A stretch of DNA of 64,000 bases from Candidatus Harrisonbacteria bacterium RIFCSPLOWO2_01_FULL_44_18 (GTDB lineage: Bacteria; Patescibacteriota; Minisyncoccia; UBA6257; WO2-44-18). Both the position numbers and the translations under genes were made by a program. The stretch is from contig MHJJ01000014.1 in the NCBI GenBank assembly GCA_001817915.1, positions 3,695 to 67,694 on the forward strand, in the 5' to 3' direction. Below the pieces are notes generated by a model. The model saw only the letters and a list, made by a program, of their open reading frames with translations. It had not been told where the DNA came from and did no database searches. Shown here piece by piece: positions 14,653-48,810 of this stretch (the stretch's first letter is position 1; each line of letters begins with the position of its first letter).

Positions 14653-14671
14653 AGCGCCTAAAGCAAATACA

Positions 14672-14695: not shown

Positions 14696-14703
14696 GATTT
14701 CTT

Positions 14704-14811: not shown

Positions 14812-14832
14812 ATAAAAGCCTATAATTTCTAT

Positions 14833-19206: not shown

Positions 19207-19442
19207 AGGGCTTTGTCTGAAATTTCGAGCCGCAAGCGATGAAATTTCAGGAACAAAACCTTTACCCCCTCACTCATTCTAGTAAAGATATGGCAATAGC
19301 GCCCAATCAGAGACGTAAGTCGGCTTCGCCTCTACTGATTCTGAAATACCGCAATCGTTGCTGGAATGAGTGAGGGGGTGCTCGATTTTGTGGCTAAATT
19401 TTCATCGCCACAAACGGGCTCGAAAATTTAGACAAAATCGGC
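19207..19442. repeat. nested inverted-repeat structured element
   Basis: ccccctcactcattc...gaatgagtgagggggt, plus outer arms tcgagccgcaagcgatgaaattt / aaattttcatcgccacaaacgggctcga. Confidence 0.4.
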
Positions 19443-20339: not shown

Positions 20340-21392
20340 CTATTTTCTCTCGCTTAATATCGCTTTCGCTTCGAATTCTTTGCCTTGTCTCAAGACTTTT
20401 AGTTTTAATACATCGCCGACTTCAAGATTTTCCAGGAAATCCTGAATCGTCTTTTGAGTAGAGATTTTTTCGCCGTTGCATTCCAGAACAATATCTTTTT
20501 CTTTTATGCCTGATTTATCCGCCGGACTATTGTGGATAATGGCGGATGAATGAGGGCCGTGGCTGATAACCAAAGCGCCATAGCCAACCGGCAGATTTAA
20601 TTTTTCCTTAAGATCTTCATCAATGGTAATATAGCGAAGACCAAGAAGCGGCCGGCGGATTCGCCCATGTTCCTTTAGGTCATGAAGGTCTCTTTTTACG
20701 GTATTGATCGGAATAGCAAAGCCGAGATTTTGAGCGCCGAAGACGATAGCCGCGTTGATGCCGATTGCTTCGCCGTCCAGATTAACTAACGGACCGCCGG
20801 AATTCCCCGGATTGATGGCCGCGTCGGTTTGGATCAAGCCGCGCAATTCCTGAAGCGGCTGTTTTGGGCCGATTGCCGCTTGGATTGATCGGGAGAGTCC
20901 GGAAATGATGCCGGCTGAAACTGTATTTTTAAAAAGACCAAGGGCGTTGCCGATAGCCAAAACGGTTTCGCCTAACTCCACCTTCGAAGAATCGCCTAAT
21001 TTAACTATTGGAAGTTTATTGGCCGGCGGATTGATTTTGATGATTGCTACGTCATCGATTGGGTCGCGCGCCAGAATTTGCGCCTTATATTTTTTGTCGT
21101 CATTGGTGATTACGGCATACTCCGCCTCGCCGTCCGAGATGACATGTTTGTTAGTAACAATAATTCCATTGGCATCAACAATAAATCCCGAGCCGCCGCC
21201 GATTTTGACCATCCCGCGCGCGTCAATCATTTCCTCGGGAATTTGAAGATGAGGATCGCCGGAAGGAAATAGCGGCAACAATTCCGGAGGTATTTCTTTT
21301 TCTATCGCCTCAAGACTTTTTGAAATTACAATCGAAACTACCGACGGCATCACTTTTTTAATTGTTTTAGTAAGAGGGGATTTTTCAGCCAT
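20340..21392 (-). CDS. htrA: HtrA/DegP-family serine protease with PDZ domain
   Basis: Trypsin-like blocks GSGFIVDANGIIVTNKHV and GNSGGPLVN, with a C-terminal PDZ domain. Confidence 0.85.
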   Translation of the reverse strand: MAEKSPLTKTIKKVMPSVVSIVISKSLEAIEKEIPPELLPLFPSGDPHLQIPEEMIDARGMVKIGGGSGFIVDANGIIVTNKHVISDGEAEYAVITNDDKKYKAQILARDPIDDVAIIKINPPANKLPIVKLGDSSKVELGETVLAIGNALGLFKNTVSAGIISGLSRSIQAAIGPKQPLQELRGLIQTDAAINPGNSGGPLVNLDGEAIGINAAIVFGAQNLGFAIPINTVKRDLHDLKEHGRIRRPLLGLRYITIDEDLKEKLNLPVGYGALVISHGPHSSAIIHNSPADKSGIKEKDIVLECNGEKISTQKTIQDFLENLEVGDVLKLKVLRQGKEFEAKAILSERK

Positions 21393-23981: not shown

Positions 23982-24464
23982 ATGATCAAAGTCGCGCTTT
24001 TTAATGAAATTTCCCATGAATTAGGCAATACTCTTCTTGTGGATGTCACAAGCAGGATCGTTGAAAGGATTAATAATCTTTTGAGGCAGTTGTCAGTCAA
24101 CGCTCCATATTGGACTATCGGATGTTTCGCGGAGTTTTTGCGGCAGTCCAATAATCATTTAGTTGTTGCTATTGATGGCAAAATTATTGCTGGTATGGGA
24201 ACGGTTATTTTGAGCTATTCTTTAATGGGCCGTCACGCGAGGATCGAGGATGTGATTGTAGATAAACCATATCTCGGTAAGGGTTTGGGTCGAAAAATTG
24301 TCGAGGAATTAATCAGAATCGCCAACAAGGAAGGAGCAAGATGGATTGATTTAACCAGCAATTCTTCGCGAGTCGGGGCACTGAAGCTTTATAGAAGCTT
24401 GGGATTTAAGGATGTGGCGACAAATTGTTTGCGGCTGGCTTTGGGAGAGCAGGATTCGAGCTAG
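23982..24464 (+). CDS. GNAT-family N-acetyltransferase (C-terminus supplied by a MITE)
   Basis: Acetyl-CoA-binding motif KGLGRKIVEELIRIA. The last 7 codons and the stop codon lie inside the TIR of the 24444 element. Confidence 0.7.
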   Translation: MIKVALFNEISHELGNTLLVDVTSRIVERINNLLRQLSVNAPYWTIGCFAEFLRQSNNHLVVAIDGKIIAGMGTVILSYSLMGRHARIEDVIVDKPYLGKGLGRKIVEELIRIANKEGARWIDLTSNSSRVGALKLYRSLGFKDVATNCLRLALGEQDSS

Positions 24465-24713
24465 CATCAATTTAGTGAGCCAATTCCCGCCCATCTTCTT
24501 TGTTACTCGTCGCTTATGTGCCTATTGGCACACTACGCTCCTCGCGCCTTGAATCTGGACAGGAATTGGCTCACCCGAAGGGAAGAGAGAATTTGAGCCA
24601 AGTTCGAGGAACGACGAGGAGGTTGTGCTGGTAAGCACATCGACGAGGAGTGACAAAGAAATTGGCTCAAATTCTCTCTTCTAAATTTGACGCCAGTTCG
24701 AATCCTGCTCTCC
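24444..24713. mobile_element. MITE-like element with about 33-bp TIRs whose ends resemble a tRNA T-arm/acceptor (GTTCGAATCCTGCTCTCC)
   Basis: ggagagcaggattcgagctagcatcaatttag ... ctaaatttgacgccagttcgaatcctgctctcc. A short copy of about 70 bp lies at 48682-48752. Confidence 0.6.
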
Positions 24714-24759
24714 TAGAGAAATAACCGCGGTTTCAAAAAATTCCCTCGAATGAGGGAAT

Positions 24760-26754: not shown

Positions 26755-29373
26755 ATGATTACCAAAGAAACTTTGCGAAAATCTTTTTGGGCTTTGCCGG
26801 TTCACGAGGCGCTTGACGCGCTTGAAACTACTGCCAGCGGGTTGATGCGGGATGAAGCAGAAGAGCGTCTTAGGGTTTTCGGGAAAAACGTTTTAGCCAA
26901 AAGGATAAGAATAACTAAATTAAAAATTCTTGTCAGGCAGTTCGGAAGCCCGCTGATTTTTCTTTTGTTAATTGCCGGCGGCGTTACTTTGTTTTTGAAG
27001 GATTTTAAGGATGCCGGATTTATTCTTGCCGCCGCTTTAATAAACGCGATTTTGGGATTTTATCAAGAAAGCAAAGCCGAGACGGCGTTGGCGCATTTAA
27101 GAACTTACATCAGAGAACGCAATCGCGTATTTAGAGATAATCACGAGATAGAAGTTGATTCCAGCGAATTAGCGCCGGGAGACGTCATCCATTTATCTCA
27201 AGGGGATCGGATACCCGCGGACTGCCGATTAATTTATGTCAACGATTTTGCCGTTGATCAAGCGATTTTAACCGGCGAATCCCTGCCGGTTTCTAAAGAT
27301 ATCAAGCCCGCCAGTTTTCAGGCAGTCCTCGCGGATCAGAATTCAATGGTCTTTAGCGGCACGGTGGCGGTACAGGGGTTTGCCAATGCCGTTGTTTCCG
27401 CTACCGGCAAATACACCGAATTGGGGAAAATCGCCGCTCTAGTCGCGAGGCCGGAAAAGGAACGCACTCCTCTTCGCGAGGCAATAAATAAATTCAGTAT
27501 TAAGGCCAGCATTATTTTGATCGGATTAACGGCCCTGATTTTTTCGCTCGGCGTTTTGACGGGAAGTTCATTGCTGGATATGTTTTTGATTTCGGTGGCG
27601 ATCGTAGTTTCGGCGATACCGGAAGGATTGCCAATCGCGATGACCGTCATTTTGGCGGTAGGCGTGCAAAGATTGGCGTGGAAAAAAGGAATTGTCCGCA
27701 AATTGCTCGCGGCGGAAACAATGGGCAGCACCTCGGTAATTTTGACTGATAAGACCGGCACCTTGACTGAAGCCAAGATGGAACTTTCGGAAATAAAAGT
27801 TTATAAGGAGGACCGCGCGGAAGAGCGGAAAGAAACGATATTAAAACTCGCCATCCTTAATAGCGACGTGGTGATAGAAAATCCCGGCGATTCGCCTTTT
27901 GACTGGGAAATTATTGGCCGGCCGCTGGAGGTGGCGATTGTCAGATCGGCGGCCAAATTTGATATTTTGGCGCCGGATGTTCGTAAGAAAATGAAAGCCG
28001 TCGATTATCTTCCATTTAGTTCCGTAAATAAATTTTCGGCAAACGTTATTCAGCAAGGTTCGAAATATTTACTTAGCGTGTTCGGCGCGCCGGAAATTTT
28101 ATTAAAATTTTCTAATTTGCCCGATAATTCGCGCCGCCAAATTCATAGAGATGTCGACAAGGTCGCCTATGGCGGCGCGAGAGTTTTAGCAGTCGCGACA
28201 AAAGAATTATCGGGCATTGAAGGAGTTTCGCTTCGCCAGAAAGAAATTTTTAAAGATTTGGATTTTTTGGGAACAATGTCTTTTAGGGACCCGATTCGCA
28301 AAGAAGTCAGAGACGCGGTTAATCGGGTCGCTCAAGCCGGTGTCCGCACTTTAATTGTCACGGGAGATCATCGCGGCACCGCGGAGTTTGTAGCTAAAGA
28401 AGTCGGCATTTCTATTGATGGCGATAGTGTCATTGACGGCGCTGAACTTGACGCGCTGAACGATGAAGATCTTAAAAATAGACTTCCGAATTTAAGGATT
28501 GTTTCGCGGGTAAGTCCGGAAGGAAAATTGAGGATAGTTAAAGCGCTTCAGGGGATAGGGGAGATTGTGGCAATGACCGGCGACGGCGTGAATGACGCCC
28601 CAAGTTTAAAGGAAGCTGATATCGGCGTTAGCATGGGTTCGGGCACCGATGTTGCTAAAGATGTATCGGATTTAGTTTTGCTTGACGATAATTTTGAAAC
28701 CATCGTGGAAGCCGTGGCTGAGGGCCGAAGGATTATACAAAATATCAGAAAAGTAATCGTTTATCTGCTTTCAAATGCTTTGGACGGATTGATTTTAATT
28801 GGCGGGTCCTTGCTTATCGGCTTGAGCTTGCCGTTGAACGCGCTGCAGATTCTTTGGGTTAATTTTTTTACCGATAGTTTTCCGGCAATCGCCTTGGCTT
28901 TTGAAAAAAAGATTGACCATTGGGTTGATCGTCCCGCGCCAATCCATAAAGGATTGCTTGACTCGGAAATGAGATTTTTGATTCAAGTGATCGGAGCGCT
29001 CACGAGTGTTTTGCTTTTGGTTTTATACGTTGGCTTGCTTTATTTGGGTATTGAAGAAAAATTGGTTCACACTTTTATCTTTGCCGCCTTTGGGACATAC
29101 AGTTTGTTTTTGGTTTTCGCGGTTCGAAGTTTGAGACGGAGTATTTTCACTTATAATCCTTTTTCAAACCCCGCGCTTTTGGGAAGCGTGATTTTAGGAT
29201 TGGGATTAATGGCGATCGCGATTTACGTTCCTTTTCTCCAAAAATTATTCGGCACCATGCCCTTGCCGTTAAACTGGCTCTGGGGCATCGTGGGTTTGGG
29301 AATTTTGAATGTCTTCGCGATTGAGTTTGGAAAGTGGGTTTTTAGAAAAAAACAACTAACAACTAACAACTAA
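26755..29373 (+). CDS. cation-transporting P-type ATPase (P2-type, Ca2+/Mg2+-like)
   Basis: DKTGTLT phosphorylation motif, TGDGVNDAPSLK, TGES and about 10 TM helices. The C-terminus and stop codon run into a heptamer tandem repeat. Confidence 0.9.
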   Translation: MITKETLRKSFWALPVHEALDALETTASGLMRDEAEERLRVFGKNVLAKRIRITKLKILVRQFGSPLIFLLLIAGGVTLFLKDFKDAGFILAAALINAILGFYQESKAETALAHLRTYIRERNRVFRDNHEIEVDSSELAPGDVIHLSQGDRIPADCRLIYVNDFAVDQAILTGESLPVSKDIKPASFQAVLADQNSMVFSGTVAVQGFANAVVSATGKYTELGKIAALVARPEKERTPLREAINKFSIKASIILIGLTALIFSLGVLTGSSLLDMFLISVAIVVSAIPEGLPIAMTVILAVGVQRLAWKKGIVRKLLAAETMGSTSVILTDKTGTLTEAKMELSEIKVYKEDRAEERKETILKLAILNSDVVIENPGDSPFDWEIIGRPLEVAIVRSAAKFDILAPDVRKKMKAVDYLPFSSVNKFSANVIQQGSKYLLSVFGAPEILLKFSNLPDNSRRQIHRDVDKVAYGGARVLAVATKELSGIEGVSLRQKEIFKDLDFLGTMSFRDPIRKEVRDAVNRVAQAGVRTLIVTGDHRGTAEFVAKEVGISIDGDSVIDGAELDALNDEDLKNRLPNLRIVSRVSPEGKLRIVKALQGIGEIVAMTGDGVNDAPSLKEADIGVSMGSGTDVAKDVSDLVLLDDNFETIVEAVAEGRRIIQNIRKVIVYLLSNALDGLILIGGSLLIGLSLPLNALQILWVNFFTDSFPAIALAFEKKIDHWVDRPAPIHKGLLDSEMRFLIQVIGALTSVLLLVLYVGLLYLGIEEKLVHTFIFAAFGTYSLFLVFAVRSLRRSIFTYNPFSNPALLGSVILGLGLMAIAIYVPFLQKLFGTMPLPLNWLWGIVGLGILNVFAIEFGKWVFRKKQLTTNN

Positions 29374-29457
29374 CAACTAACAACTAACAACTAACAACTA
29401 ACAACTAACAACTAACAACTAACAACTAACAACTAACAACTAACAACTAACAACTAA
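29351..29457. repeat. tandem heptamer (CAACTAA) x about 15
   Basis: aacaactaacaactaac... perfect copies covering the ATPase stop codon and the 3' end of convergent comF. Confidence 0.9.
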
Positions 29458-30167
29458 ACCTTGGCTATTACCAGTCCGATGACTCTTGCCGCGCCGGCTT
29501 TTCGTAAAATTTTTACTGCTTCGTTCATAGTACTGCCGGAAGTAAATACGTCATCGATCGGGATTATCTTTTTGCCCTTAATCAACTCCGGATTTTTTAC
29601 CGCGAAGCATCCGGCAATGTTCTCTTGCCTTTTTTCTAATCCTTTTATTTCCGGCTGGGGCTTAGTATTTTTTATTCTGATTAAATTGCCGGTCATCAAT
29701 TTCACGCCAAGGGTTTTGCTGATTTCTTCGGCAATGGCTTCAGATTGATTAAACCCGCGCCCCCTTTCTCGAGAAGGATGAAGCGGGATCGGGATAATCA
29801 AACTTGCGGGACTTATTGGCCTTATAGGCCCTATGTAGGCCAGCAGGATTTTCGCCAGCGGTTTGGCGGCGCATTTTTGTTTTTTGTACTTGAGCCGCCA
29901 AATCAGTTTTTTTACTTTTTCATCGTCATAGGACGTTGCCGCGCCCAATAAGTAGGAGTCTTTTTTGTGGCAGACTTTTTTATTGTCGGCTAATCTTGCC
30001 CGACAGATCGAGCAATACAACGCGGTATTTATAGGAATAGAATTAAAACAAGAAGCGCAGATATATTCTTCCTTTTCGGTTTTTTGAAGAGCTTTTTCGC
30101 AAATCAAACAAATCGGCGGGGAGAGAATATCCAAAACAGCGCCTTTTAATCTTATTAAGTAATTCAT
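29454..30167 (-). CDS. comF: ComF-family competence protein (double zinc ribbon + phosphoribosyltransferase domain)
   Basis: N-terminal PPICLICEKAL...CASCF zinc ribbon, and a C-terminal PRTase motif KKIIPIDDVFTSGSTM. Confidence 0.75.
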   Translation of the reverse strand: MNYLIRLKGAVLDILSPPICLICEKALQKTEKEEYICASCFNSIPINTALYCSICRARLADNKKVCHKKDSYLLGAATSYDDEKVKKLIWRLKYKKQKCAAKPLAKILLAYIGPIRPISPASLIIPIPLHPSRERGRGFNQSEAIAEEISKTLGVKLMTGNLIRIKNTKPQPEIKGLEKRQENIAGCFAVKNPELIKGKKIIPIDDVFTSGSTMNEAVKILRKAGAARVIGLVIAKV

Positions 30168-30390
30168 AAGACCTCTTGCTTAATAATTTTTCGTTACGAA
30201 ATGGATAAATTTGAGGCGAAACAAAGCGAAAATTTCGAGGCATATACAAGAGTATCTGTCGAGAAATTTTCGCAAAGTTGTAGCCCAAATTTATACATTG
30301 CAGTAGAAAAGGTTATTACGCAAGAGGTCTATATTCTGGTATACTAAAGCTAGATTGTCGTTAAGGCAAATTCACTGAACTAAGAACTAA

Positions 30391-31470
30391 ATGGCTTTCG
30401 ATTTTTTTAAATCTTTACTCGGCGCCCAAAATTATTTGGCGGTTGATATCGGCACTACTTCGATAAAGGTTTTAGAATTTTCAAAAAAATCCAACGGCCG
30501 GCCGGCTCTTCGCAATTACGGATTTTTGGAAACCTACGGCTATCTGGAAAGATTTAATGAAGCCCTTCAAACCAGTAGTTTGAAAATGCTTGATGTGGAG
30601 GCGGCGAAGTATTTAAAAATAGTTTTGGATCGCGCCGGAATCAAGTCGCGGTCGGCGGTCGCGTCCATACCCGCCTTTATGGCCTTTACCACTTTAATCG
30701 AACTGCCAATGATGAGCGAAGCTGAAACTTCGCAGACAATGGATTTTCAGGCAAAACAGTATATTCCCATCCCGGTAAAAGCGGCCGCGATTGATTGGAT
30801 AAAGATAGGCGAACGCGAGGACGAAGAGGGGCGAAAGAGACAGCAAGTTTTTTTGATTTCCGTTCCAAAGGAACAAATTGAAAAATATCAAAAGATTTTC
30901 CGGCTAGCCGGTTTGAAATTAGCCGCTTTGGAAATCGAGGGTTTGAGTCTTGCTCGAGCGCTTAGCCGAGGCATTAAAGAGCCGGTTTTGATTGTTGATA
31001 TCGGCGCTCGTTCAACCAGCCTGACCGTCGGAGTAGACGGGCTTTTGAGATTCGCCGGTCAAACCGATTTTGCCGGCGGCTCCTTGACTCAAGCAGTGGC
31101 TTCGGGTTTGGGCATCGCCGCCCGACGAGCTGAAGAATTGAAGTGGCGGAAGGGCTTAATCGCCACCGGCGGCGAGCAAGAGTTATCCACACTGATGCTA
31201 CCGTTTTTAGATGTTATAATTAATGAGGCGAAAAGAGTCAAGCAGAATTACGAAACCAGTTATCAGAATAAGATAGCCGCGGTTATTTTGGCGGGAGGCG
31301 GGGCAAATTTGTTGGGTATAGAGAAATATTTTGGTCAACAGATAGAACTGCCGGCATCTTTAGCCGCTCCCTTCAAAGAGATTGACTATCCGCCGGAGAT
31401 TGCCTCGTTAATCAAAGATTTGGGACCGGCATTTTCAGCCGCGATAGGACTAGGGATGAAAGGGCTATAA
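30391..31470 (+). CDS. pilM: type IV pilus assembly ATPase-like protein PilM
   Basis: Actin-like fold signature LAVDIGTTSIKVLEF. Position at the head of the pilus operon. Confidence 0.85.
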   Translation: MAFDFFKSLLGAQNYLAVDIGTTSIKVLEFSKKSNGRPALRNYGFLETYGYLERFNEALQTSSLKMLDVEAAKYLKIVLDRAGIKSRSAVASIPAFMAFTTLIELPMMSEAETSQTMDFQAKQYIPIPVKAAAIDWIKIGEREDEEGRKRQQVFLISVPKEQIEKYQKIFRLAGLKLAALEIEGLSLARALSRGIKEPVLIVDIGARSTSLTVGVDGLLRFAGQTDFAGGSLTQAVASGLGIAARRAEELKWRKGLIATGGEQELSTLMLPFLDVIINEAKRVKQNYETSYQNKIAAVILAGGGANLLGIEKYFGQQIELPASLAAPFKEIDYPPEIASLIKDLGPAFSAAIGLGMKGL

Positions 31471-31612
31471 CGAAGTAATCGCGAACAACGCGAATCTATG
31501 CAAAATAATGCTAATAATTTATTCGCGTTATTTCGAATCAGATTAGCATTATTCGCGATTACTCCGATTCGTGTTATTTTGAAACAAATTAGCATTATTC
31601 GCGATTACTCCG
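31471..31612 (+). repeat. 145-bp structured intercistronic element, copy 1 (pilM stop to pilN start)
   Basis: cgaagtaatcgcgaacaacgcgaa...aatgctaataatttattcgcgttatttcgaatcagattagcattattcgcgattactccgATG, with several internal inverted repeats. Near-identical copies lie at 34958-35108 and 36183-36331. Confidence 0.85.
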
Positions 31613-32146
31613 ATGAATCAAAATCTTGTTGATAAATTTGAAACGGAAAGATTGCCGACCGGGTGGCCATGGCGGTTATTTTTGTTCAGTTTTTTGCTTT
31701 TCGCGGCGACGGTCGTCAGTTATTTTGGTTTGTCATTGGGCTATAAGCCGTTTTTAAACAGGCAAATTGCCGGAAAGGAAGCGGAAGTTAATCAATTGGC
31801 GGCGGCCGTTCCCGAAGCCGAGCAGGAAAATTTTATTAGATTTTATTCTCAATTGGCGAATTTGGAGAAAGTCTTAAACAACCATGTTGTTTCTTCCGCC
31901 CTCTTTCCATTTTTAGAAAGAAATACCAACGTCCAGATATATTACAATATCTTGGATTTCAGCGCTTCGGAGAAGAGATTGACTTTGGATGGCGTTGCTC
32001 AAAACTACGATATTTTAGCGCAGCAGCTCGAGGCTTTCACTCAAGCTAAAGAGGTTGAGCGGTTTTTAATCAATGAATCGCAATTAAGCGAAGGAAAAAT
32101 AAGATTTCGGGTATCGCTATTTTTAGCGCCGCAAGTATTGAGATAA
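31613..32146 (+). CDS. pilN: type IV pilus assembly protein PilN-like
   Basis: Single N-terminal TM, then a coiled-coil periplasmic domain. Position after pilM. Confidence 0.6.
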   Translation: MNQNLVDKFETERLPTGWPWRLFLFSFLLFAATVVSYFGLSLGYKPFLNRQIAGKEAEVNQLAAAVPEAEQENFIRFYSQLANLEKVLNNHVVSSALFPFLERNTNVQIYYNILDFSASEKRLTLDGVAQNYDILAQQLEAFTQAKEVERFLINESQLSEGKIRFRVSLFLAPQVLR

Positions 32147-32147
32147 A

Positions 32148-32717
32148 ATGAAGGCTTCAACTAAAAGAATTTTCAGTTTGTTGGGAATCGCCGCTTTGTT
32201 GGTGGCGACATTGGCGGTTTACGCGAGTTTAATCAGGCCTGAATATGAAATTGTGGCCCAGCTTCGCGGCGTTCTTTCGGCAAAGACCAAATTGCTTGAA
32301 GAACAGGGGCGGGTAATCGCTCAAGTTCAGGATTTGATCGCGCAGTATCAAGGCGCGGCTCAGCTTCAGGAAACTATTTCTCTGGCATTGCCAACGGATG
32401 AAGCAACGGCCTCTATTTTCCAGCAAGTTAACGCCATTGCCAGAGCGAACGGCCAGTCCACTCAGGCTTTTGGTTTAACGGCTTTGGCCATTAAGCCGGC
32501 GTCCAGCGACGCGCCCGGATCCAAAGGATTGGGGACGCTGCGGCTGAACTTCCGCCTTTTGGGTAATTACGGAGGATTTAAGGGATTCTTAAAAGCTCTT
32601 GAGACCAATGTCCGAGTTATGGATTTAGCCGGTTTGAAAATGGAACAGGCCGGTCGCCCCAATCAAGATTTATATTTTTATAATTTAGTGGTCGATACAT
32701 ACTATCAATCACATTAG
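32148..32717 (+). CDS. pilO: type IV pilus assembly protein PilO-like
   Basis: N-terminal TM plus coiled coil. Gene order pilM-N-O. Confidence 0.55.
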   Translation: MKASTKRIFSLLGIAALLVATLAVYASLIRPEYEIVAQLRGVLSAKTKLLEEQGRVIAQVQDLIAQYQGAAQLQETISLALPTDEATASIFQQVNAIARANGQSTQAFGLTALAIKPASSDAPGSKGLGTLRLNFRLLGNYGGFKGFLKALETNVRVMDLAGLKMEQAGRPNQDLYFYNLVVDTYYQSH

Positions 32718-32832
32718 TCTGTTATCGCGAGGCATTTATGCCGAGCTAGTTACCAGTTACCAATTACTTCGTGGAATCGCCGTGTAATCAGTAACTTGCT
32801 CAACATAAAGGTTTCGCGACACAGTTCAAAGT

Positions 32833-33123
32833 ATGGCCATACTTGTCAGCGAGCAAAAAAAACCGATTAACTGGTTCGCCATAATTTTTGTGGTGATTTT
32901 AATCGCGCTAGTCGCGGGCGGCGCCTACTATTTGTTTTTTGCTCCGACGCCGGGTATTGAAATAATCGTGCCTCCATCGCTTCAATCCGTTACTAAAATT
33001 TCCCAGGTTGAATTCGACCCGGCCGCCGTAGTTAACAGCCGGGCATTCAAAGTTTTGCGTTCTTATACCGGCTTGCCAAGTGTCGGAACGTTGGGAAGAG
33101 GTAATCCGTTTATTGGTTTTTAA
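32833..33123 (+). CDS. hypothetical small membrane protein in pilus operon
   Basis: 96 aa with a single TM (FAIIFVVILIALVAGGAYYLFF). Confidence 0.4.
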   Translation: MAILVSEQKKPINWFAIIFVVILIALVAGGAYYLFFAPTPGIEIIVPPSLQSVTKISQVEFDPAAVVNSRAFKVLRSYTGLPSVGTLGRGNPFIGF

Positions 33124-33223
33124 TAATTGTATAGACCGATGCTAAAAATGCGAAATAAATGCGAATTATGCGAAGTATAAAGTTTTTTCGCAACATTCGC
33201 ATCATCAATTTCGCATCGGTAAC

Positions 33224-34957
33224 ATGAAAGATCAAGACCTCTTAAAATCTTTAATCGAAGCCGGTTTTTTAACTTCCGATCAGGAAGATAAGATTTCCAA
33301 AGAATCAGCCGTTCTTCATAAAAGCGCCGAAGATATTATTTACGGCCGGCATTTGGTTGATGAAGCCGAGGTGGCGAAAATAAAAAGCCGGCTGTTGGGC
33401 GTTCCTTATAAAAAAGTTGATGTTGATGAGCTAGGCGACGAGCTTTTGGGTTTAATCCCGGAAGAAACCGCCCGGACTTATAAAGTTTTTCCGATTTCTC
33501 GGACAAAAGATTTGCTGGTGGTAGGGATGCTTCATCCGGACGATCCGAAGGCCCAAGAAGCCCTTCGTTTTATCGCTAAACAATCGCGCGTCAGTCTCGG
33601 GATTTATTTGGTGACGCCCTCCGACGTGGAATTAGTTTCGCGAAAATACGCTCCTTATAAAAGCGAGGTTCAGGCCGCGCTGCAGTCTTTAAATATAAAA
33701 CCCGGCCAAGGCGTTTCTTCTTTTCAGAGAGTGATAAAACTGGAAGAAGCGGCCGCCGCCGCCGAAGAGGCGCCGGTTATTAGAATTGTAGCTTCGACTC
33801 TGCGCGAAGCGGTTAACGCCAACGCTTCCGACATTCACATTGAGCCGCAGCGCGCTCGGTTAAGAATCAGATTTCGGCTCGATGGCGATCTGCAGGAGGT
33901 TTCTTCTTTGCCCATAGAACTTCATCAGCCCATAATTTCCCGAATTAAAATTTTATCCAGTTTGAAAATTGATGAAACGCGCGTTCCTCAAGACGGGCGT
34001 TTTAGGACTGTTATTTATGACCGCGAGATAGATTTTCGCGTTTCCACTTTTCCGACGCCGGCCGGCGAAAAAGCGGCTCTGCGGGTTCTTGACCCGACTA
34101 TCGGTTTGCGAAGTCTTGATGATTTGGGTTTGATCGGAAGAAATTTAGACATCGCTAAGGAAGCAATTGAAAAACCTTACGGCATGGTCTTGATTACCGG
34201 TCCGACCGGATCCGGCAAAACAACAACGCTTTACGCTTTGATGCAGGTTCTTAATAAAGAAAGCGTCAATGTCGTGAGCCTTGAAGACCCGGTGGAATAT
34301 ACGATTGACGGCGTCAATCAATCGCAGGTTCGTCCGGAGATCGGCTATGATTTTGCCTCGGGCCTGCGCCAGATTTTGCGCCAAGATCCGGACATTATGA
34401 TGGTCGGCGAGATTCGCGACAGCGAAACCGCCGCTTTGGCGATTCACGCGGCTCTGACGGGGCACATCGTGCTTTCAACTTTGCATACCAATAATGCCGT
34501 CGCCGTTATTCCGCGCTTAACAGATATGAAAGTCGAGCCGTTTTTATTGCCGAGTTCTTTAAATTTAATGATATCTCAACGTTTGGTTTCTCGGCTTTGC
34601 CAGCGCTGTAAAAAAGCCGAGGATCCCTCGCCGAAAATTCTGGAAGAAATTAAAAAAGAAATTGAGAAACTTCCGGCCGTTGTCAGGGTCAAGTACCGGG
34701 AACCGTATAAAATTCATCATTCGCCGGGATGCAAGTTCTGCAATAACAAGGGGTTTGTCGGCCGAATAGCCCTGTTTGAAGTTCTTCAGATGACTCCGGA
34801 ATTGGCGGAGATAATAGCCGCCGGGATCAATGAGGCAAAAATTTTAGCCGAAGCCAAGCGGCAAGGGATGATTAGTTTGCGCCAGGACGGCGTGGTAAAA
34901 GCGCTAGACGGTTTGGTGAGCGTGGAAGAAGTATTAAGAGAAACAGAAGAACTGTGA
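33224..34957 (+). CDS. pilB: type IV pilus assembly ATPase PilB (GspE family)
   Basis: Walker A GPTGSGKTTTLYA, Asp box, His box and a tetracysteine motif (CQRC...CKFC). Confidence 0.9.
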   Translation: MKDQDLLKSLIEAGFLTSDQEDKISKESAVLHKSAEDIIYGRHLVDEAEVAKIKSRLLGVPYKKVDVDELGDELLGLIPEETARTYKVFPISRTKDLLVVGMLHPDDPKAQEALRFIAKQSRVSLGIYLVTPSDVELVSRKYAPYKSEVQAALQSLNIKPGQGVSSFQRVIKLEEAAAAAEEAPVIRIVASTLREAVNANASDIHIEPQRARLRIRFRLDGDLQEVSSLPIELHQPIISRIKILSSLKIDETRVPQDGRFRTVIYDREIDFRVSTFPTPAGEKAALRVLDPTIGLRSLDDLGLIGRNLDIAKEAIEKPYGMVLITGPTGSGKTTTLYALMQVLNKESVNVVSLEDPVEYTIDGVNQSQVRPEIGYDFASGLRQILRQDPDIMMVGEIRDSETAALAIHAALTGHIVLSTLHTNNAVAVIPRLTDMKVEPFLLPSSLNLMISQRLVSRLCQRCKKAEDPSPKILEEIKKEIEKLPAVVRVKYREPYKIHHSPGCKFCNNKGFVGRIALFEVLQMTPELAEIIAAGINEAKILAEAKRQGMISLRQDGVVKALDGLVSVEEVLRETEEL

Positions 34958-35108
34958 TATAATTAACGAAGTAATCGCGAACAACGCGAACCTATGCAAA
35001 ATAATGCTAATAATTTATTCGCGTTATTTCGAATCAAATTAGCATTATTCACGATTACTCCGATTCGTGTTATTTTGAAACAAATTAGCATTATTCGCGA
35101 TTACTCCG
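34958..35108 (+). repeat. 145-bp structured intercistronic element, copy 2 (pilB stop to pilT start)
   Basis: About 95 % identical to copy 1. Confidence 0.85.
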
Positions 35109-36182
35109 ATGGACGATTACAAACAAAAACTAGATGAATTACTGTTGACTACGGCGAAACAGAACGCTTCGGATCTTCATTTGGCCGTCGGTCGCCGTCC
35201 GACTTTAAGGATTGACGGCGCTTTAGTGCCTTTGCAAAAAGAGACGATATTAACTCCCGAGTCAGCCGAGGGTTTGATCAGCGCCTTTTTAACGCCGGAG
35301 CAAAAGGAAGAATTTCTAAAAAATAAGGAGCACGATCTTTCCTATTCTTTTGAAGACAAAGCCCGGTTTCGCGTCAATGTTTTTTATCAGCGGGGATTTA
35401 TGGCCGCCGCTTTGCGCTTGATACCGGCTCAAATAAGGACAGTCGAAGAACTTAATTTGCCGCCAGTCTTGCACGATTTTACCCGTCTTTCTCAAGGTTT
35501 TGTTTTACTTGTCGGTCCGGCCGGCCACGGCAAATCTACAACGATGGCCGCGCTGGCGGATGAAATCAATCATCAGCGCACCGCTCATATCATTAGCATT
35601 GAAGATCCCATTGAGTATTTATTTTCTCAAGATCGGAGCATTATTTCTCAAAGAGAGGTGAGAAATGATACGCCGGATTTTCACAAAGCGCTCCGTTCTG
35701 TTTTAAGACAAGACCCGGATGTGGTGATAATCGGCGAAATGCGCGACCCGGAGTCAATCTCAACGGCGCTGACGGCCGCCGAAACCGGCCACTTGGTTTT
35801 TTCAACGCTTCATACCAATTCCGCCTCCCAAACGATAGATAGAATTATTGATAGTTTTCCGCCCGCCCAACAGAGCCAGATTACATCTCAATTATCCGCC
35901 ACATTAGTCGGCATTGTTTCTCAACGTTTAATTCCGCGGGTTGACGGCGGCCGTATGCCGGCTTGCGAAGTAATGCTCGTTAATTCGGCGATCAGAAATT
36001 TGATCCGCGAGAGAAAGGCGTATCAAATTGATTTGGTGATTGAAACCAGCATGCAGGAAGGAATGTTAACTCTTAACCGTTCTTTAATCGGTTTGGTGAA
36101 AAAGAGGCAGATTTCAATTGAAAACGCGGAGCTTTATTCATTGAACCCGAGCGAGTTGAGGATATTATTGGAGAGAACATAA
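35109..36182 (+). CDS. pilT: twitching motility ATPase PilT
   Basis: Walker A GPAGHGKSTTMAA; PilT-type retraction ATPase blocks. Confidence 0.9.
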   Translation: MDDYKQKLDELLLTTAKQNASDLHLAVGRRPTLRIDGALVPLQKETILTPESAEGLISAFLTPEQKEEFLKNKEHDLSYSFEDKARFRVNVFYQRGFMAAALRLIPAQIRTVEELNLPPVLHDFTRLSQGFVLLVGPAGHGKSTTMAALADEINHQRTAHIISIEDPIEYLFSQDRSIISQREVRNDTPDFHKALRSVLRQDPDVVIIGEMRDPESISTALTAAETGHLVFSTLHTNSASQTIDRIIDSFPPAQQSQITSQLSATLVGIVSQRLIPRVDGGRMPACEVMLVNSAIRNLIRERKAYQIDLVIETSMQEGMLTLNRSLIGLVKKRQISIENAELYSLNPSELRILLERT

Positions 36183-36331
36183 CGAAGTAATCGCGAACAA
36201 CGCGAACCTATGCAAAATAATGCGAATACTGTTAACGGAGCAATCGCTAATAATGCGAATTTTGGCAAAATAATGCTAATAATTTATTCGCGTTATTTTG
36301 AATCAGATTAGCATTATTAGCGATTACTTCG
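36183..36331 (+). repeat. structured intercistronic element, copy 3 (variant; pilT stop to pilC start)
   Basis: Same 5' block taacgaagtaatcgcgaacaacgcgaacctatgcaaaataatgc and same 3' block aatgctaataatttattcgcgttattttgaatcagattagcattatt. The central segment is diverged. Confidence 0.8.
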
Positions 36332-37540
36332 ATGAAATATAGATACAGCGCCAGAACTAAAGTTGGGGATTTGCAGGTGGGATTTGTCGAGGCCGTTAAT
36401 CGCGACGCCGCGGCCAATATTTTAATTAGCCACGATCTTTTTGTTTTGAGTTTGGAATCGGCGGAGGCGTCAAGGTGGTTTGGCTGGATTTTGGGTTTTT
36501 TCCGACGAGTAAAAAAGATTGACCTGATGATTTTTACCCGCCAATTCGCCACCATGCTTGAAGCAAAAATTCCCTTAGGCGATTCCCTGAAAAGTCTTTA
36601 CGCTCAAACTAAGAATGTCGCTTTGAAAGAAACAATTTTTGAAATTTCTTCGGATATTGACGCCGGCCTTTCGCTTTCTCAATCTTTAAGCCGCCACGCC
36701 AATATCTTTTCGGAATTTTACATTAATTTGGTGCAGGCTTCGGAAGTGACCGGCCGCATTGAAGAGGCGGTTGGTTTTTTGGCAGACTATCTAGACAAGG
36801 AAATCTCTTTATTGGGACGCGTCCGCAGCGCCCTTATCTATCCGGTTTTTGTTATCGGCTTATTCATAGTCGTGGTTGGCGTTATGGTCGGCACGGTCTT
36901 CCCTCAGCTTTTGCCGATTTTTGAGGAGTCGGCGGCGGAGCTGCCTTTAATCACCAGCCTGCTTTTAAATTCCGGAAATTTCATCGCTGATTGGTGGTTG
37001 GCGATTCTGGTTATTCTGGCAATTCTTATCACTGTTTTGGTTGATTATTTCCGCACCGAAGAGGGCAGAATTATTCAGGATCAGTTGCTTATTAACACAC
37101 CGGTTGTGGGAGGCTTATTTAGAAAAATGTATGTCGCGAGATTCGCGGAGGCGGTCAGCGTTTTAATAAAAGGAGGAATTCCGATTGCTCAAGCAATGGA
37201 AATAAGCAGTCATACTGTTGGAAGTTTTGTTTATCGCGAGGCATTGCATGAGGTGGCGGAAGCTATCCGCGGGGGCGAGTTGCTGTCGCAAGCCTTGTCG
37301 CGCGACACGAATTATTTTCCGCCGATCGTCAGCCAAATGGTGGCGGTAGGCGAACGCACCGGCAAGCTGGACGAGATGTTTGGACGCGTAGCCAAATTTT
37401 ATACGCGCGAGGTTGATGCCACAGTGGGTAATTTAGTAGAATTAGTTCAGCCGACTCTTATGGTGGTTATCGGCTTAGGAGTGGGATTGCTTTTTGCGGC
37501 TGTATTGTTACCGATTTACAATTTGGCAGCAACATTTTAG
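36332..37540 (+). CDS. pilC: type IV pilus platform protein PilC (GspF family)
   Basis: Two GspF repeats and 3 TM segments; C-terminal end LLPIYNLAATF. Confidence 0.9.
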   Translation: MKYRYSARTKVGDLQVGFVEAVNRDAAANILISHDLFVLSLESAEASRWFGWILGFFRRVKKIDLMIFTRQFATMLEAKIPLGDSLKSLYAQTKNVALKETIFEISSDIDAGLSLSQSLSRHANIFSEFYINLVQASEVTGRIEEAVGFLADYLDKEISLLGRVRSALIYPVFVIGLFIVVVGVMVGTVFPQLLPIFEESAAELPLITSLLLNSGNFIADWWLAILVILAILITVLVDYFRTEEGRIIQDQLLINTPVVGGLFRKMYVARFAEAVSVLIKGGIPIAQAMEISSHTVGSFVYREALHEVAEAIRGGELLSQALSRDTNYFPPIVSQMVAVGERTGKLDEMFGRVAKFYTREVDATVGNLVELVQPTLMVVIGLGVGLLFAAVLLPIYNLAATF

Positions 37541-37546
37541 GATTTC

Positions 37547-37599
37547 GATTCCCGAAACCGATAGTGGATTTCGGGAATCCAGCGGATTCCCGAAATCCC
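37547..37599. promoter_or_regulatory. GATTCCCGAAATC palindrome cluster upstream of major pilin gene
   Basis: gattcccgaaaccgatagtggatttcgggaatc and ggattcccgaaatcc. Same motif family as at 14704-14811. Confidence 0.5.
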
Positions 37600-37640
37600 A
37601 AATTTAGGACTTATTATTGAAATATGCTATACTTAAATAT

Positions 37641-44225: not shown

Positions 44226-44261
44226 TCGCCGAGCTATCGCATTATCTAGATTCATAATTTT

Positions 44262-44440
44262 CCGTTCTCACCAGATATTTTTCTCTTGCCCTCGCGACCT
44301 GCTTCGCGCGTTTAACGCCGCTATTTCCGGCCCTCCCGACGCGTATCGGGAGAAGGACGTTTCGCTCCCGAAAATAGCGGCTACGCGCTCGCGGTATCCC
44401 GCTCGGGTCGCGTTCAGAAAATCTGGTGGGAACTAACCAC
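44262..44440. ncRNA. candidate structured RNA (rod-like nested helices, GC-rich)
   Basis: Perfectly nested complementary arms: caccagatattttctc/gaaaatctggtg, cgcgacc/ggtcgcg, gccgctattt/aaatagcggc, ctcccg/cgggag and ggag...ctcc. Strand not determined. Confidence 0.35.
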
Positions 44441-44467
44441 TCCACGTTTTATCCATAAACCTGCTAA

Positions 44468-46531
<2,064 letters not shown>

Positions 46532-47378: not shown

Positions 47379-47386
47379 TTTTTGCT

Positions 47387-47447
47387 AAACCCCCACACCA
47401 AATGAGTTTCAAGATTCTATAAAAACTCGTTATGGTGTGGGGGTAAA
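47387..47447. mobile_element. palindromic miniature element (CCCCACACCAAA family), copy 3, intergenic
   Basis: aaacccccacaccaaatgag...ctcgttatggtgtgggggtaaa, followed by a terminator-like hairpin cccgccttcgagcggg. Confidence 0.7.
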
Positions 47448-47509
47448 CCCGCCTTCGAGCGGGTTTTATTATTATTGACTAGTATCGCGGCTGGGAGTAT
47501 TTTTAAGAC

Positions 47510-48664: not shown

Positions 48665-48681
48665 CGTCAATCCCGCGCCTA

Positions 48682-48752
48682 GGAGAGCAGGATTCGAACT
48701 AGCGTCAAATTTAGAAGAGAGAATTTGAGCCAAGTTCGAATCCTGCTCTCCT
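48682..48752. mobile_element. short copy of the tRNA-end-like MITE (GGAGAGCAGGATTCGAAC TIRs)
   Basis: ggagagcaggattcgaactagcgtcaaatttagaagagagaatttgagccaagttcgaatcctgctctcc. Confidence 0.6.
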
Positions 48753-48756
48753 ATTA

Positions 48757-48786
48757 TCCGCCTAAATGGCGGATTTTTGTTTTTGA
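48757..48786 (+). terminator. rho-independent terminator after metK
   Basis: ccgcctaaatggcgg hairpin followed by ATTTTTGTTTTT. Confidence 0.55.
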
Positions 48787-48810
48787 ATAAACAAGTTATA
48801 ATTAAACTTA

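What the first reader, a model, noticed from the sequence alone, without database searches (positions are those of the whole stretch)
31471..36331. A 145-bp structured element occupies three intercistronic gaps of the type IV pilus operon, each running exactly from stop codon to start codon
Near-identical copies (about 95 %) lie at 31471-31612 (pilM to pilN) and 34958-35108 (pilB to pilT). A variant lies at 36183-36331 (pilT to pilC).

Each copy begins immediately after the upstream TAA/TGA with CGAAGTAATCGCGAACAACGCGAA. Each ends …ATTAGCATTATTCGCGATTACTCCG immediately before the ATG. Each contains multiple internal inverted repeats (aatgctaat/attagcatt; gtaatcgcgaa/ttcgcgattac). The downstream genes have no SD sequence of their own.

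This looks like an RNA-level module for processing, differential stability or translation initiation of a polycistronic pilus transcript, rather than a mobile element. The spurious minus-strand ORFs 31386-31595 and 36247-36555 lie within it.
Basis: seen in the sequence. Interest (0 to 1): 0.65.

Follow-up and report, generated by a model that had tools for sequence, protein, structure and literature searches.

The report
Selfish palindromic repeat filling gene junctions
The three look-alike 142-149-base hairpin sequences between the pilus genes are real, but they are copies of a widespread, apparently undescribed repeat family of groundwater "candidate phyla radiation" bacteria that wedges itself between a stop codon and the next start codon of many kinds of genes. 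The family is tied to a small nuclease gene, and nothing supports a pilus-specific RNA control device.

Summary
Three related elements fill the pilM-pilN, pilB-pilT and pilT-pilC gaps and all end flush with the ATG. Copy 2 starts 9 nt after the pilB stop, not immediately.

Each element is built from roughly 45-nt "arms" (AGTAATCGC-K-AA-Y-AA-Y-GC-K-AAT, a variable spacer, AATAAYGCGAAT) in inverted orientation, with one arm duplicated.

The same arms occur in more than 120 groundwater and sediment metagenome contigs and 9 loci from 7 CPR genomes. I found 148 non-redundant elements next to at least 80 gene families, inside a 23S rRNA gene, beside a tRNA and between divergent genes. Their outer ends usually abut a stop or start codon.

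There is no covariation: RNAalifold found 0 compensatory pairs among 20, and the spacers are not complementary. Copies within one genome share the otherwise variable spacers, and relatives have empty sites (TGATG, ATGA, TAAaATG).

A long form exists: arm, then a 125-aa GxxExxY/PDDEXK_3 nuclease gene, then an inverted arm (9 of 9 close homologues). Distant homologues, including some in other phyla, carry different cognate repeat arrays.

Best reading: a MITE-like derivative of a nuclease cassette bounded by terminal inverted repeats (TIRs), tolerated at tight junctions of a nearly Shine-Dalgarno-less genome. A dedicated RNA module is not supported, though an RNA-level side effect is not excluded.

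The parts
31471..31612 (+). Copy 1 (pilM TAA to pilN ATG). Left arm 31471-31518, inverted right arm 31517-31566, duplicated right arm 31567-31612.
   Evidence: (nhmmer arm hits E 2e-12 to 2e-10)
34958..34966 (+). TATAATTAA between the pilB TGA and copy 2. With the TGA it forms TGaTATAAT, a leaderless-type extended -10 box. The same box is conserved at this junction in relatives that lack the element.
   Evidence: best sigma-70-like site in 29.3-38.2 kb; L139 TGTATAAT-N6-ATG, L140 TATAAT-N7-ATG; same motif left of the L098 copy
34967..35108 (+). Copy 2 (ends flush with the pilT ATG). Left arm 34967-35015, right arm 35013-35062, duplicated right arm 35063-35108. It is 98% identical to copy 1.
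   Evidence: (D2)
36183..36331 (+). Copy 3 (pilT TAA to pilC ATG). Left arm 36183-36232, duplicated left arm 36236-36286, inverted right arm 36280-36331.
   Evidence: (D4)
33124..33223 (+). Divergent relative in the gap before pilB. It is a hairpin of three ATGCGAA motifs and three inverted TTCGCA motifs. The arm HMM does not hit it.
   Evidence: z -5.4/-7.5; sequence shown
30391..31470 (+). pilM, whose TAA abuts copy 1
   Evidence: PF11104, E 3.5e-36
31613..32146 (+). pilN-position gene, whose ATG abuts copy 1
   Evidence: the syntenic 171-187-aa ORFs in L136-L140 support this start
33224..34957 (+). pilB (T2SSE ATPase)
35109..36182 (+). pilT. Its ATG abuts copy 2 and its TAA abuts copy 3.
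36332..37540 (+). pilC (T2SSF), whose ATG abuts copy 3

Best explanation
**What it is.** The three sequences are non-autonomous, MITE-like members of a repeat family that appears undescribed. I call them GCGAAT-arm elements. The family is found in Parcubacteria/Patescibacteria (CPR) genomes.

**Anatomy.** The unit is a roughly 45-nt arm with three phased GCGAAT sites: AGTAATCGCKAAT, then AAYGCKAAT, then a 7-9-nt free spacer, then AATAAYGCGAAT. Two arms in inverted orientation make the 85-150-nt palindrome.

**Long form.** The full-length relative is the same pair of arms around a roughly 125-aa PD-(D/E)XK nuclease gene (GxxExxY, Pfam PDDEXK_3).

**Proposed mechanism.**
1. Inferred: the arms are the recognition arrays of that nuclease. 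The cassette and its ORF-less derivatives are copied within a genome into gene boundaries.
2. Shown: the pre-insertion junctions in relatives are 0-1-nt or overlapping stop/start sites, or a -10 box 6-7 nt before a leaderless ATG. A viable copy therefore has to run from the stop region exactly to the ATG.
3. Inferred, untested: the element is transcribed with the operon and folds into a hairpin that puts the stop codon (or the transcript's 5' end) next to the start codon. In a nearly SD-less genome this would preserve translational coupling or leaderless-like initiation, which is why such insertions survive.
For: **Family and contexts**
- A degenerate arm pattern finds 9 loci from 7 CPR genomes and at least 120 metagenome contigs.
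- These yield 148 non-redundant elements: 89 solo arms, 51 simple inverted pairs plus 6 pairs with extra arms (57 bounded by inverted arms), and never outward-facing pairs.
- Contexts include pilT-pilC in three genomes, rpsB-tsf, gyrA, clpP, ssb, HU and ribosomal-protein operons. Copies also sit inside a 23S rRNA gene, 1 nt from a tRNA and between divergent genes.

**Registration with codons**
- Of the outer ends facing a stop, 45 of 83 have the stop within -5 to +4 nt of the arm.
- Of those facing a start, 45 of 83 have the first ATG 1-4 nt away.
- ORFs that run into the arm use all three frames about equally.

**Mobility-type evidence**
- Syntenic operons L136, L139 and L140 have empty junctions: TGATG, ATGA, TAAaATG.
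- Spacers are shared within a locus (mean identity 0.36; 6 of 27 identical) but not between loci (0.11; 0.2% identical).
- Copies 1 and 2 are 98% identical.

**Long form**
- Five loci show arm, PDDEXK_3/GxxExxY ORF, inverted arm.
- Four further homologues, fetched without reference to arms, are all flanked by arms at E 1e-9 to 1e-14.
- L085 keeps a 30-aa ORF remnant inside a short element.
- A 37%-identical homologue is flanked by ACGAAT arrays instead.
- GxxExxY genes in Bacteroides, Bernardetia, Sphingomonas and Treponema are flanked by their own inverted repeat arrays between operon genes.
- The catalytic residues D...ExK are invariant. The predicted fold is a PD-(D/E)XK core.

**No RNA-structure signal**
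-.
Against: - No target-site duplication could be defined, and no canonical transposase was found.
- A PD-(D/E)XK nuclease alone is not known to carry out cut-and-paste transposition.
- Arms are more conserved than the flanking coding DNA at orthologous junctions (0.71-0.92 against 0.56-0.76).
- The same junctions are occupied in different genomes. This could equally mean host-level function.
- Full elements are polar with respect to the genes. At least 23 variant arms AGT(G/A/T)TTCGC are all on the start-codon side and none on the stop side. A purely neutral palindrome does not predict this.
- No strain-level presence/absence polymorphism was seen. All six assemblies of this operon carry the three copies.
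- No hits in viral contigs.
Confidence: 0.6

Rival explanations
1. A host RNA module. The co-transcribed hairpin would be a processing site (for example for RNase III), a stability element or a translational coupling device. It would have been selected for this role between cistrons of an organism that lacks Shine-Dalgarno sequences.
For: - The hairpins are predicted to be stable: -42 kcal/mol (z -3.0) on the plus strand and -54 kcal/mol (z -5.9) on the minus strand for copy 1.
- The 3' end is flush with the conserved ATG in all copies, and this holds family-wide.
- Orientation is polar relative to genes.
- Orthologous junctions are occupied repeatedly, and the arms are more conserved than the flanking genes.
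- The genome is nearly SD-less, so internal cistrons need coupling or leaderless starts.
Against: - None of 20 consensus pairs shows a compensatory change.
- Variable arm positions pair no better than shuffled partners. Position 13 is systematically mismatched (0.14 observed against 0.43 expected), and the spacers are not complementary.
- G-U versus A-C asymmetry favours the antisense strand in the window copies and neither strand family-wide (60 against 69).
- Sixty per cent of elements are single arms that cannot form the hairpin.
- Copies occur in a 23S rRNA gene, next to a tRNA and between divergent genes.
- No Rfam family matches.
Confidence: 0.17
2. A DNA-level binding array with a host function. 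The phased GCGAAT sites would be operators for a regulator or nucleoid-type protein, possibly the GxxExxY protein itself acting as a DNA binder. They would mark gene boundaries, and the protein's own gene would be flanked by its sites for autoregulation.
For: - Conservation is block-wise: invariant motifs separated by a free spacer, as in protein-binding sites.
- Solo arms are conserved at orthologous junctions (rpsB-tsf 0.87, gyrA 0.92, against flanks at 0.56-0.76).
- The protein subfamily and the repeat motif co-vary.
Against: - A copy lies inside a 23S rRNA gene.
- Intragenomic copies share the neutral spacers.
- The target genes have no common function.
- The nuclease catalytic residues are invariant.
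- Relatives with empty sites have the same operon.
Confidence: 0.12
3. Portable promoters. Each arm would carry -35/-10-like hexamers (TTCGCA ... CATTAT, or AATAAT in the other direction) and would launch short-leader or leaderless transcripts of the gene it abuts.
For: - Many genes of this genome have TATAAT-like boxes 6-9 nt before the ATG.
- In some solo arms, block B (AATAAT-GCGAAT) lies 0-9 nt before an ATG (L129).
Against: - The consensus scan finds no plus-strand promoter inside the three copies. It finds only weak minus-strand ones, plus the pre-existing TGaTATAAT outside copy 2.
- Hexamer spacing is 18-22 nt in most arms, and the -10-like CATTAT ends 14 nt before the ATG (my reading).
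- Arms abut stop codons as often as start codons.
Confidence: 0.05

Closest known systems
Bacterial MITEs that are co-transcribed as hairpins: Correia/NEMIS elements of Neisseria, ERIC/IRU of enterobacteria, RUP of pneumococcus (from established knowledge)
   Same: - Size of 85-150 bp and long terminal inverted repeats.
- No coding capacity and many copies per genome.
- Location in transcribed intergenic regions of operons.
- Hairpin formation in mRNA.
- Half or rearranged copies occur.
   Different: - No sequence similarity, and no TA or other target duplication seen.
- The ends are arrays of phased short motifs with free spacers.
- The cognate long form encodes a PD-(D/E)XK nuclease rather than a DDE transposase.
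- Placement is exactly against start codons in SD-less genomes.
REP/BIME elements with their RAYT (IS200/IS605-type) transposases
   Same: - Short extragenic palindromic units occur in alternating orientation in operon gaps.
- The units are linked to a single-copy protein gene that is flanked by the same repeats.
   Different: - The units are not self-palindromes and have no GTAG or CGTC head.
- The associated protein has a PD-(D/E)XK fold, not an HUH Y1 transposase fold.
23S rRNA intervening sequences (IVS) of Leptospira, Coxiella, Salmonella and others, with or without a small ORF (from established knowledge)
   Same: - A hairpin insertion bounded by inverted repeats lies inside a 23S rRNA helix (L125).
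- Long forms carry a small ORF between the repeats, and short forms have none.
   Different: - Most copies here are between protein genes, not in rRNA.
- The ORF is GxxExxY, not the four-helix-bundle IVS protein.
- Excision from the RNA was not tested.
Free-standing homing endonuclease genes between conserved genes of T4-like phages (from established knowledge); Rickettsia palindromic elements (from established knowledge); repetitive hairpin-forming elements of mitochondria (PMC2800124, seen as a search hit; abstract only)
   Same: - A small nuclease gene or hairpin is wedged between, or into the ends of, housekeeping genes without destroying them.
- It recurs at the same junction in different genomes.
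   Different: - Multi-site dispersal of ORF-less derivatives with conserved ends is not typical of homing endonuclease genes.
- Unlike Rickettsia palindromic elements, insertion is at gene boundaries rather than in frame within genes. About 40% of stop-side copies do replace the last codons and supply the stop codon.

Membership tests
MITE (miniature inverted-repeat transposable element) | Terminal inverted repeats | tested here: met
   Termini of 25-27 nt are 81-85% complementary in the window (I18-I25). Fifty-seven elements are bounded by inverted arms.
MITE (miniature inverted-repeat transposable element) | Small, non-coding, with multiple near-identical copies within a genome | tested here: met
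   - The window copies are 142-149 nt.
- Copies 1 and 2 are 98% identical.
- Five copies of one subfamily were aligned.
- Spacers are shared within a locus.
MITE (miniature inverted-repeat transposable element) | Target-site duplication | tested here: inconclusive
   The flanks of 57 full elements show no consistent duplication. The window copies have TAA on the left and ATG on the right. Empty sites in relatives are too diverged to define one.
MITE (miniature inverted-repeat transposable element) | Autonomous partner with the same ends that encodes a transposase | tested here: inconclusive
   A partner with the same ends exists. It encodes a PDDEXK_3/GxxExxY nuclease, and transposase activity is unknown.
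MITE (miniature inverted-repeat transposable element) | Presence/absence polymorphism at orthologous sites | tested here: met
   The pilM-pilN, pilB-pilT and pilT-pilC junctions are empty in L136, L139 and L140. This holds only between relatives whose PilT is about 80% identical. No strain-level polymorphism was seen.
Structured cis-regulatory RNA (Rfam-type family) | Match to a curated covariance model | tested here: not met
   Only tRNAs reach gathering scores in the window.
Structured cis-regulatory RNA (Rfam-type family) | Base pairs supported by compensatory changes | tested here: not met
   None of 20 pairs is compensatory and the covariation term is -0.1. The Watson-Crick fraction at variable sites does not exceed that of shuffled partners.
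Structured cis-regulatory RNA (Rfam-type family) | Consistent strand and position relative to the regulated gene | tested here: inconclusive
   The start-codon side is precisely placed and polar. However, solo arms occur in both orientations, and copies lie in an rRNA gene and in a divergent promoter region.
REP/BIME with RAYT | Self-palindromic 20-40-nt units with a GTAG/CGTC head, and an associated Y1 (HUH) transposase | tested here: not met
   The arm is not a self-palindrome and has no such head. The associated protein has a PD-(D/E)XK fold.
Correia/NEMIS elements | 26-bp Correia terminal repeats, TA duplication and an IHF site | tested here: not met
   The termini differ in sequence, and TA is not consistently duplicated. 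An IHF site was not examined.

The most novel reading that the evidence does not exclude
GxxExxY (PDDEXK_3, TIGR04256) proteins are listed as function unknown. They may be the nucleases of a phylum-spanning, previously unrecognised class of small selfish cassettes.

These cassettes are bounded by inverted arrays of short phased repeats that co-evolve with the protein: GCGAAT and ACGAAT in Parcubacteria, CACAGAGGA in Bacteroidota, ACGCGAAG in Sphingomonas.

They settle precisely between a stop codon and the next start codon, or at the transcription start of leaderless genes. In CPR bacteria they have spawned ORF-less hairpin derivatives that now make up much of the intergenic DNA, including insertions in rRNA.
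Probability: 0.4. Interest if true: 0.8.

Novelty: new variant of a known kind. Interest (0 to 1): 0.62.

Why it matters
- **Intergenic DNA in CPR bacteria.** These genomes are extremely reduced, yet much of the intergenic DNA in this window is long hairpins. This family shows that at least part of that DNA is a propagating repeat rather than regulatory sequence. It also explains spurious ORF calls and chimeric joins in metagenome assemblies, such as L119.
- **A function for GxxExxY.** The link to GxxExxY gives a testable role to a widespread protein family of unknown function. It also suggests a new kind of mobile cassette.
- **Translation without Shine-Dalgarno sequences.** The exact stop-to-start placement in an SD-less, leaderless-prone genome is a natural experiment. 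It bears on how internal cistrons are translated when a 140-nt hairpin separates them.

Tried and rejected
- **Rfam.** The gathering-threshold scan of the window found only tRNAs. An E-value scan of L026 and L034, where the element sits inside another hairpin, found nothing credible.
- **C-terminal peptide tag.** The variable arm positions are every third base, and all are synonymous in the frame V-I-A-N-N-A-N. The arm is read in frame at the end of rpsB in L001 and L005. I rejected the idea because ORFs running into arms use the three frames about equally (10, 10 and 13) and spacer lengths break the frame.
- **Promoter reading.** Hexamer spacing fits poorly and the scan gives no support on the gene strand.
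- **Competence specificity.** The known copies of this genome's subfamily lie at pil genes, dprA and ssb. Family-wide the neighbours are diverse housekeeping genes, so I rejected it.
- **Phage origin.** There were no hits in viral contigs.
- **Target-site duplication.** None emerged from 57 flank pairs.
- **Literature.** No paper in the library contains the arm motifs in a relevant context (14 incidental hits) or describes such repeats in Patescibacteria. GxxExxY or PDDEXK_3 is mentioned in five papers (four were listed, two checked); those checked give no function.
- **Solved structures.** The sequence search for GxxExxY gave no meaningful hit.
Full report

Yes.
- The three stretches are at 31471-31612, 34967-35108 and 36183-36331.
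- The 24-nt head occurs exactly three times. The tail motif occurs seven times within three mismatches. Shuffled sequence expects none of either.
- Pfam identifies most flanking ORFs: PilM, PilO (weak), two T2SSE ATPases (pilB and pilT; the second is called PilT by its homologues), T2SSF and the prepilin peptidase. The ORF after pilM has no Pfam hit and is called PilN from its position.
- Copies 1 and 3 run from the base after TAA to the base before ATG.
- Copy 2 ends flush with the pilT ATG. It begins 9 nt (TATAATTAA) after the pilB TGA, so "immediately after the stop" is wrong for that copy.
- Copies 1 and 2 are 98% identical.
- The flush ATGs are the conserved starts of PilT and PilC, judged from syntenic operons.
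- An HMM of the repeat arm finds nine arms in the 64-kb window, all in these three gaps.

**2. Anatomy**

The unit is a roughly 45-nt arm, read here from its outer to its inner end.
- It has an invariant block, AGTAATCGC-K-AA-Y-AA-Y-GC-K-AAT, usually preceded by GG or AG.
- A 7-9-nt spacer of free sequence follows.
- A second invariant block, AATAA-Y-GC-D-AAT, completes the arm.

Two arms with their inner ends facing each other give the palindrome. Copies 1 and 2 carry a second right arm, and copy 3 a second left arm.

The stem mismatches of the window copies are A-C on the gene strand and G-U on the opposite strand. The antisense strand therefore folds better: -54.1 kcal/mol (z -5.9) against -42.2 kcal/mol (z -3.0).

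**3. The family**

A degenerate arm pattern found 9 loci from 7 CPR genome assemblies, labelled Harrisonbacteria, Liptonbacteria, "Saccharibacteria" or unclassified. The window operon itself is in several aquifer assemblies.

PilT's nearest homologues are about 80% identical and come from Parcubacteria: Wolfebacteria, Harrisonbacteria and relatives.

After removing duplicates there are 148 elements:
- 89 single arms;
- 51 simple inverted pairs;
- 8 with extra arms (six of them also bounded by inverted arms);
- none with the outer ends facing each other.

The elements are not pilus-specific.
- The 63 genes that start flush against an element hit 80 Pfam families. These include pilC (four times), MreB, ribosomal proteins S19, L2, L10 and L14, DnaK, DNA polymerase III alpha, FtsX, PrgI and CTP synthase.
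- One copy lies inside a 23S rRNA gene, as a 149-nt insertion at model positions of about 225-233.
- One ends 1 nt before a tRNA gene.
- One lies between divergent genes, next to dprA.
- Several lie in the leader of an HU-like gene.
- Some junctions are occupied in several genomes: pilT-pilC in three, and rpsB-tsf, gyrA and clpP in two each.

**4. Stop/start registration is family-wide**

I classified 205 outer ends.
- 83 face the stop of a long ORF on the same strand. In 45 of these the stop lies within -5 to +4 nt of the A of AGTAATCG.
- Thirteen of those genes use the TAA inside AGTAATCG as their stop codon. About 20 more ORFs read further into the arm.
- The three reading frames are used about equally, which argues against a functional tail peptide.
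- 83 face the start of an ORF on the opposite strand. The first ATG is 1-4 nt away in 45 of these.

Single arms are also tightly packed. In 19 of 34 cases the next same-strand ORF starts 0-9 nt after the inner block.

Full elements are polar. A variant arm, AGT(G/A/T)TTCGC, read in the mRNA as ...GCGAACACT-N1-3-ATG, is on the start-codon side in at least 23 elements and never on the stop side.

**5. The RNA-structure test fails**

- RNAalifold on 32 gene-oriented full elements predicts 20 pairs. All are invariant or have one-sided changes. None has a compensatory change, and the covariation term is -0.1.
- I made my own count on 35 oriented elements. At the variable arm positions the two arms of one element are Watson-Crick no more often than randomly paired arms:
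  - position 13: 0.14 observed against 0.43 expected;
  - position 22: 0.43 against 0.58;
  - position 42: 0.37 against 0.48.
- The spacers are not complementary, at about 0.2.
- G-U pairs favour neither strand family-wide (60 against 69).

The hairpin therefore exists only because two copies of a conserved DNA motif are inverted. Sixty per cent of elements cannot form it at all.

**6. Evidence for copying and insertion**

Syntenic operons in relatives show both empty and differently filled sites.

| Junction | Relative | Sequence at the junction |
|---|---|---|
| pilT-pilC | L136 | cTGATGaaa |
| pilT-pilC | L139 | cATGAaa |
| pilT-pilC | L140 | TAAaATG |
| pilM-pilN | L137 | TAAaATG |
| pilB-pilT | L140 | TGA-TATAAT-N7-ATG |
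| pilB-pilT | L139 | TAA-gTGTATAAT-N6-ATG |

The pilB-pilT junction in relatives is therefore a leaderless-type promoter for pilT. In the window the element sits between that conserved -10 box and the ATG (TGA TATAAT TAA [element] ATG). This box is the best sigma-70-like site in the region. The L098 copy has the same TGATATAAT-AA to its left.

With ancestral junctions of 0-1 nt, any surviving insertion has to be flush. That such narrow targets are hit repeatedly, and in clusters, suggests targeting rather than chance. Clusters include three copies in 5 kb here, four in 6 kb in L031, and three in 3 kb in each of L016 and L040.

Copies within one locus share the otherwise free spacers: mean identity 0.36 with 6 of 27 identical, against 0.11 and 0.2% between loci. 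That is the signature of intragenomic copying. Independently conserved regulatory sites would not show it.

**7. A long form with a nuclease gene**

- Five loci have left arm, a roughly 125-aa ORF, and an inverted right arm. These units again sit between a stop and the next ATG.
- The ORF is Pfam PDDEXK_3 (E about 1e-34) and NCBIfam TIGR04256 "GxxExxY protein".
- Every tblastn hit to this protein in all the loci held at that point (window and L001-L135) lies between arms. One short element (L085) retains a 30-aa remnant of the N-terminus.
- Four homologues fetched through the protein database, without reference to arms, are all flanked by arms (E 1e-9 to 1e-14). Three lie at prfB-ftsE and one after clpP.
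- A 37%-identical homologue (L145) is flanked instead by four ACGAAT motifs upstream and three inverted ones downstream. This is the motif of the hairpin that fills pilT-pilC in L137.
- D69 and E79-x-K81 are invariant in 35 homologues.
- The AlphaFold model (pLDDT 94.9) has a generic PD-(D/E)XK core. Its best match is Cas4 SSO0001.
- The one survey I checked that lists the family gives its function as unknown and notes multiple horizontal transfers (PMC3424549).

Outside the CPR I examined eight GxxExxY genes in annotated replicons.
- Four are flanked by inverted repeats, and in three of these the repeats are arrays of short direct motifs:
  - Bacteroides finegoldii, after radA: 30 nt, 90% complementary, CACAGAGGA motifs;
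  - Bernardetia: 28 nt, 86%;
  - Sphingomonas, between fabD and fabG: 25 nt, 92%;
  - Treponema: a simple 16-nt inverted repeat.
- Gemmatirosa has an adjacent ORF-less palindrome of CGCAGAGGA motifs.
- Persicobacter and Prevotella show no flanking repeats. The Fusobacteria record has direct rather than inverted repeats.

**8. Genome context**

- The window is nearly SD-less: 8 of 54 long ORFs have an SD-like motif. Many genes have a TATAAT-like box 6-9 nt before the ATG.
- Most intergenic gaps longer than about 75 nt fold far better than shuffles, including every gap of the pilus operon.
- The gap before pilB (33124-33223) is a diverged relative built of ATGCGAA motifs.
- The pilC-pilin gap belongs to a second hairpin family (TTTCGGGAATC).
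- In L137 and L138 the same operon junctions hold unrelated hairpins made of other short motifs.

**9. Most likely mechanism**

Shown:
- the family exists, with the arm anatomy described;
- placement against stop and start codons is family-wide;
- the stems show no covariation;
- relatives have empty sites;
- copies within a genome share spacers;
- a long form carries a nuclease gene;
- the repeat motif changes with the protein subfamily.

Inferred:
- The arms are recognition arrays for the GxxExxY nuclease.
- The cassette and its ORF-less derivatives are copied into gene boundaries.
- The transcribed hairpin brings the stop codon, or the 5' end of the transcript, next to the AUG. Coupled or leaderless-like initiation then survives, which is why such copies persist.

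The copying chemistry is unknown. I found no target duplication and no transposase. The polarity of the arms and their conservation at orthologous junctions leave room for a host-level role.

**10. Comparison, novelty and verdict**

The element works like a MITE that is co-transcribed as a hairpin (Correia/NEMIS, ERIC), and like ORF-bearing and ORF-less rRNA intervening sequences. It is not a member of any named family that I could test.

I found no description of it in the searchable literature.

I rate it a new variant of a known kind. The RNA-module interpretation is not supported as the primary explanation.

Noticed in passing
window 7396-7422, 11344-11370, 14697-14723, 14792-14818, 37541-37616: A second hairpin-forming repeat family (GATTTCGGGAATC and its complement GATTCCCGAAATC). 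One copy fills the pilC-pilin gap.
   Followed up: partly
window 29337-29471: A tandem array of the heptamer AACAACT, about 18 units long. It lies between the P-type ATPase stop and the convergent comF-like gene. The same motif type (CAACTAA with TTGTAAG) forms a hairpin in the pilC-pilin gap of L138.
   Followed up: no
window 24439-24718 and 48679-48753: Palindromes made from sequence resembling a tRNA 3' half (GGAGAGCAGGATTCGAAC...), 59 nt and 97% complementary between the two sites. They may be tRNA-derived hairpin elements.
   Followed up: no
window, whole (e.g. 20340-21392 minus strand, 40973, 54832): The genome is almost devoid of Shine-Dalgarno motifs (8 of 54 long ORFs). Many genes have a TATAAT-like box 6-9 nt before the ATG, which suggests widespread leaderless or very short-leader mRNAs.
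   Followed up: partly
window 5841-5971, 14653-14796, 19207-19442, 30168-30390, 32718-32832, 44226-44476, 47379-47509, 48665-48810, 55978-56084: Most intergenic gaps longer than about 75 nt fold into long hairpins (z from -5 to -12). Many are built from short tandem motifs plus their complement. Intergenic DNA here is largely palindromic.
   Followed up: partly
L125 6053-7100: The 5' domain of a CPR 23S rRNA gene carries four insertions relative to the bacterial model: 288, 149, 110 and about 100 nt. The 149-nt one is the element studied here. The roughly 100-nt one is a hairpin of ACGCGGA motifs like window repeats at 7038, 12423 and 55745.
   Followed up: partly
L146-L153 (Bernardetia, Bacteroides, Sphingomonas, Fusobacteria, Treponema, Persicobacter, Prevotella, Gemmatirosa replicons): GxxExxY genes outside the CPR sit between operon genes (for example fabD and fabG, or after radA). 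In 4 of 8 cases they are flanked by inverted repeats, three of them arrays of lineage-specific short motifs. A fifth has an adjacent ORF-less palindrome of the same kind of motif.
   Followed up: partly
L119 1224-2026: The ssb gene is followed by an element with the same two-left-arm structure as window copy 3, and then by the start of pilC. This is either a chimeric assembly through the repeat or a rearrangement. Either way it implies another copy downstream of ssb in a close relative.
   Followed up: partly
L002 ~7620-7740, L008 ~3617-3740: A different GC-rich hairpin repeat (GTCTCCC-TACG-GGAGATCTCCCGAGGGGAGAC) is nested in the centre of two GCGAAT-arm elements, so one repeat has inserted into another.
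   Followed up: no
L026 ~488-570, L034 ~1004-1090, L002: The element sits in the loop of another conserved hairpin (gtgaggc...gcctcgc, followed by a terminator-like stem). This may be an unannotated small RNA; no Rfam match was found.
   Followed up: partly
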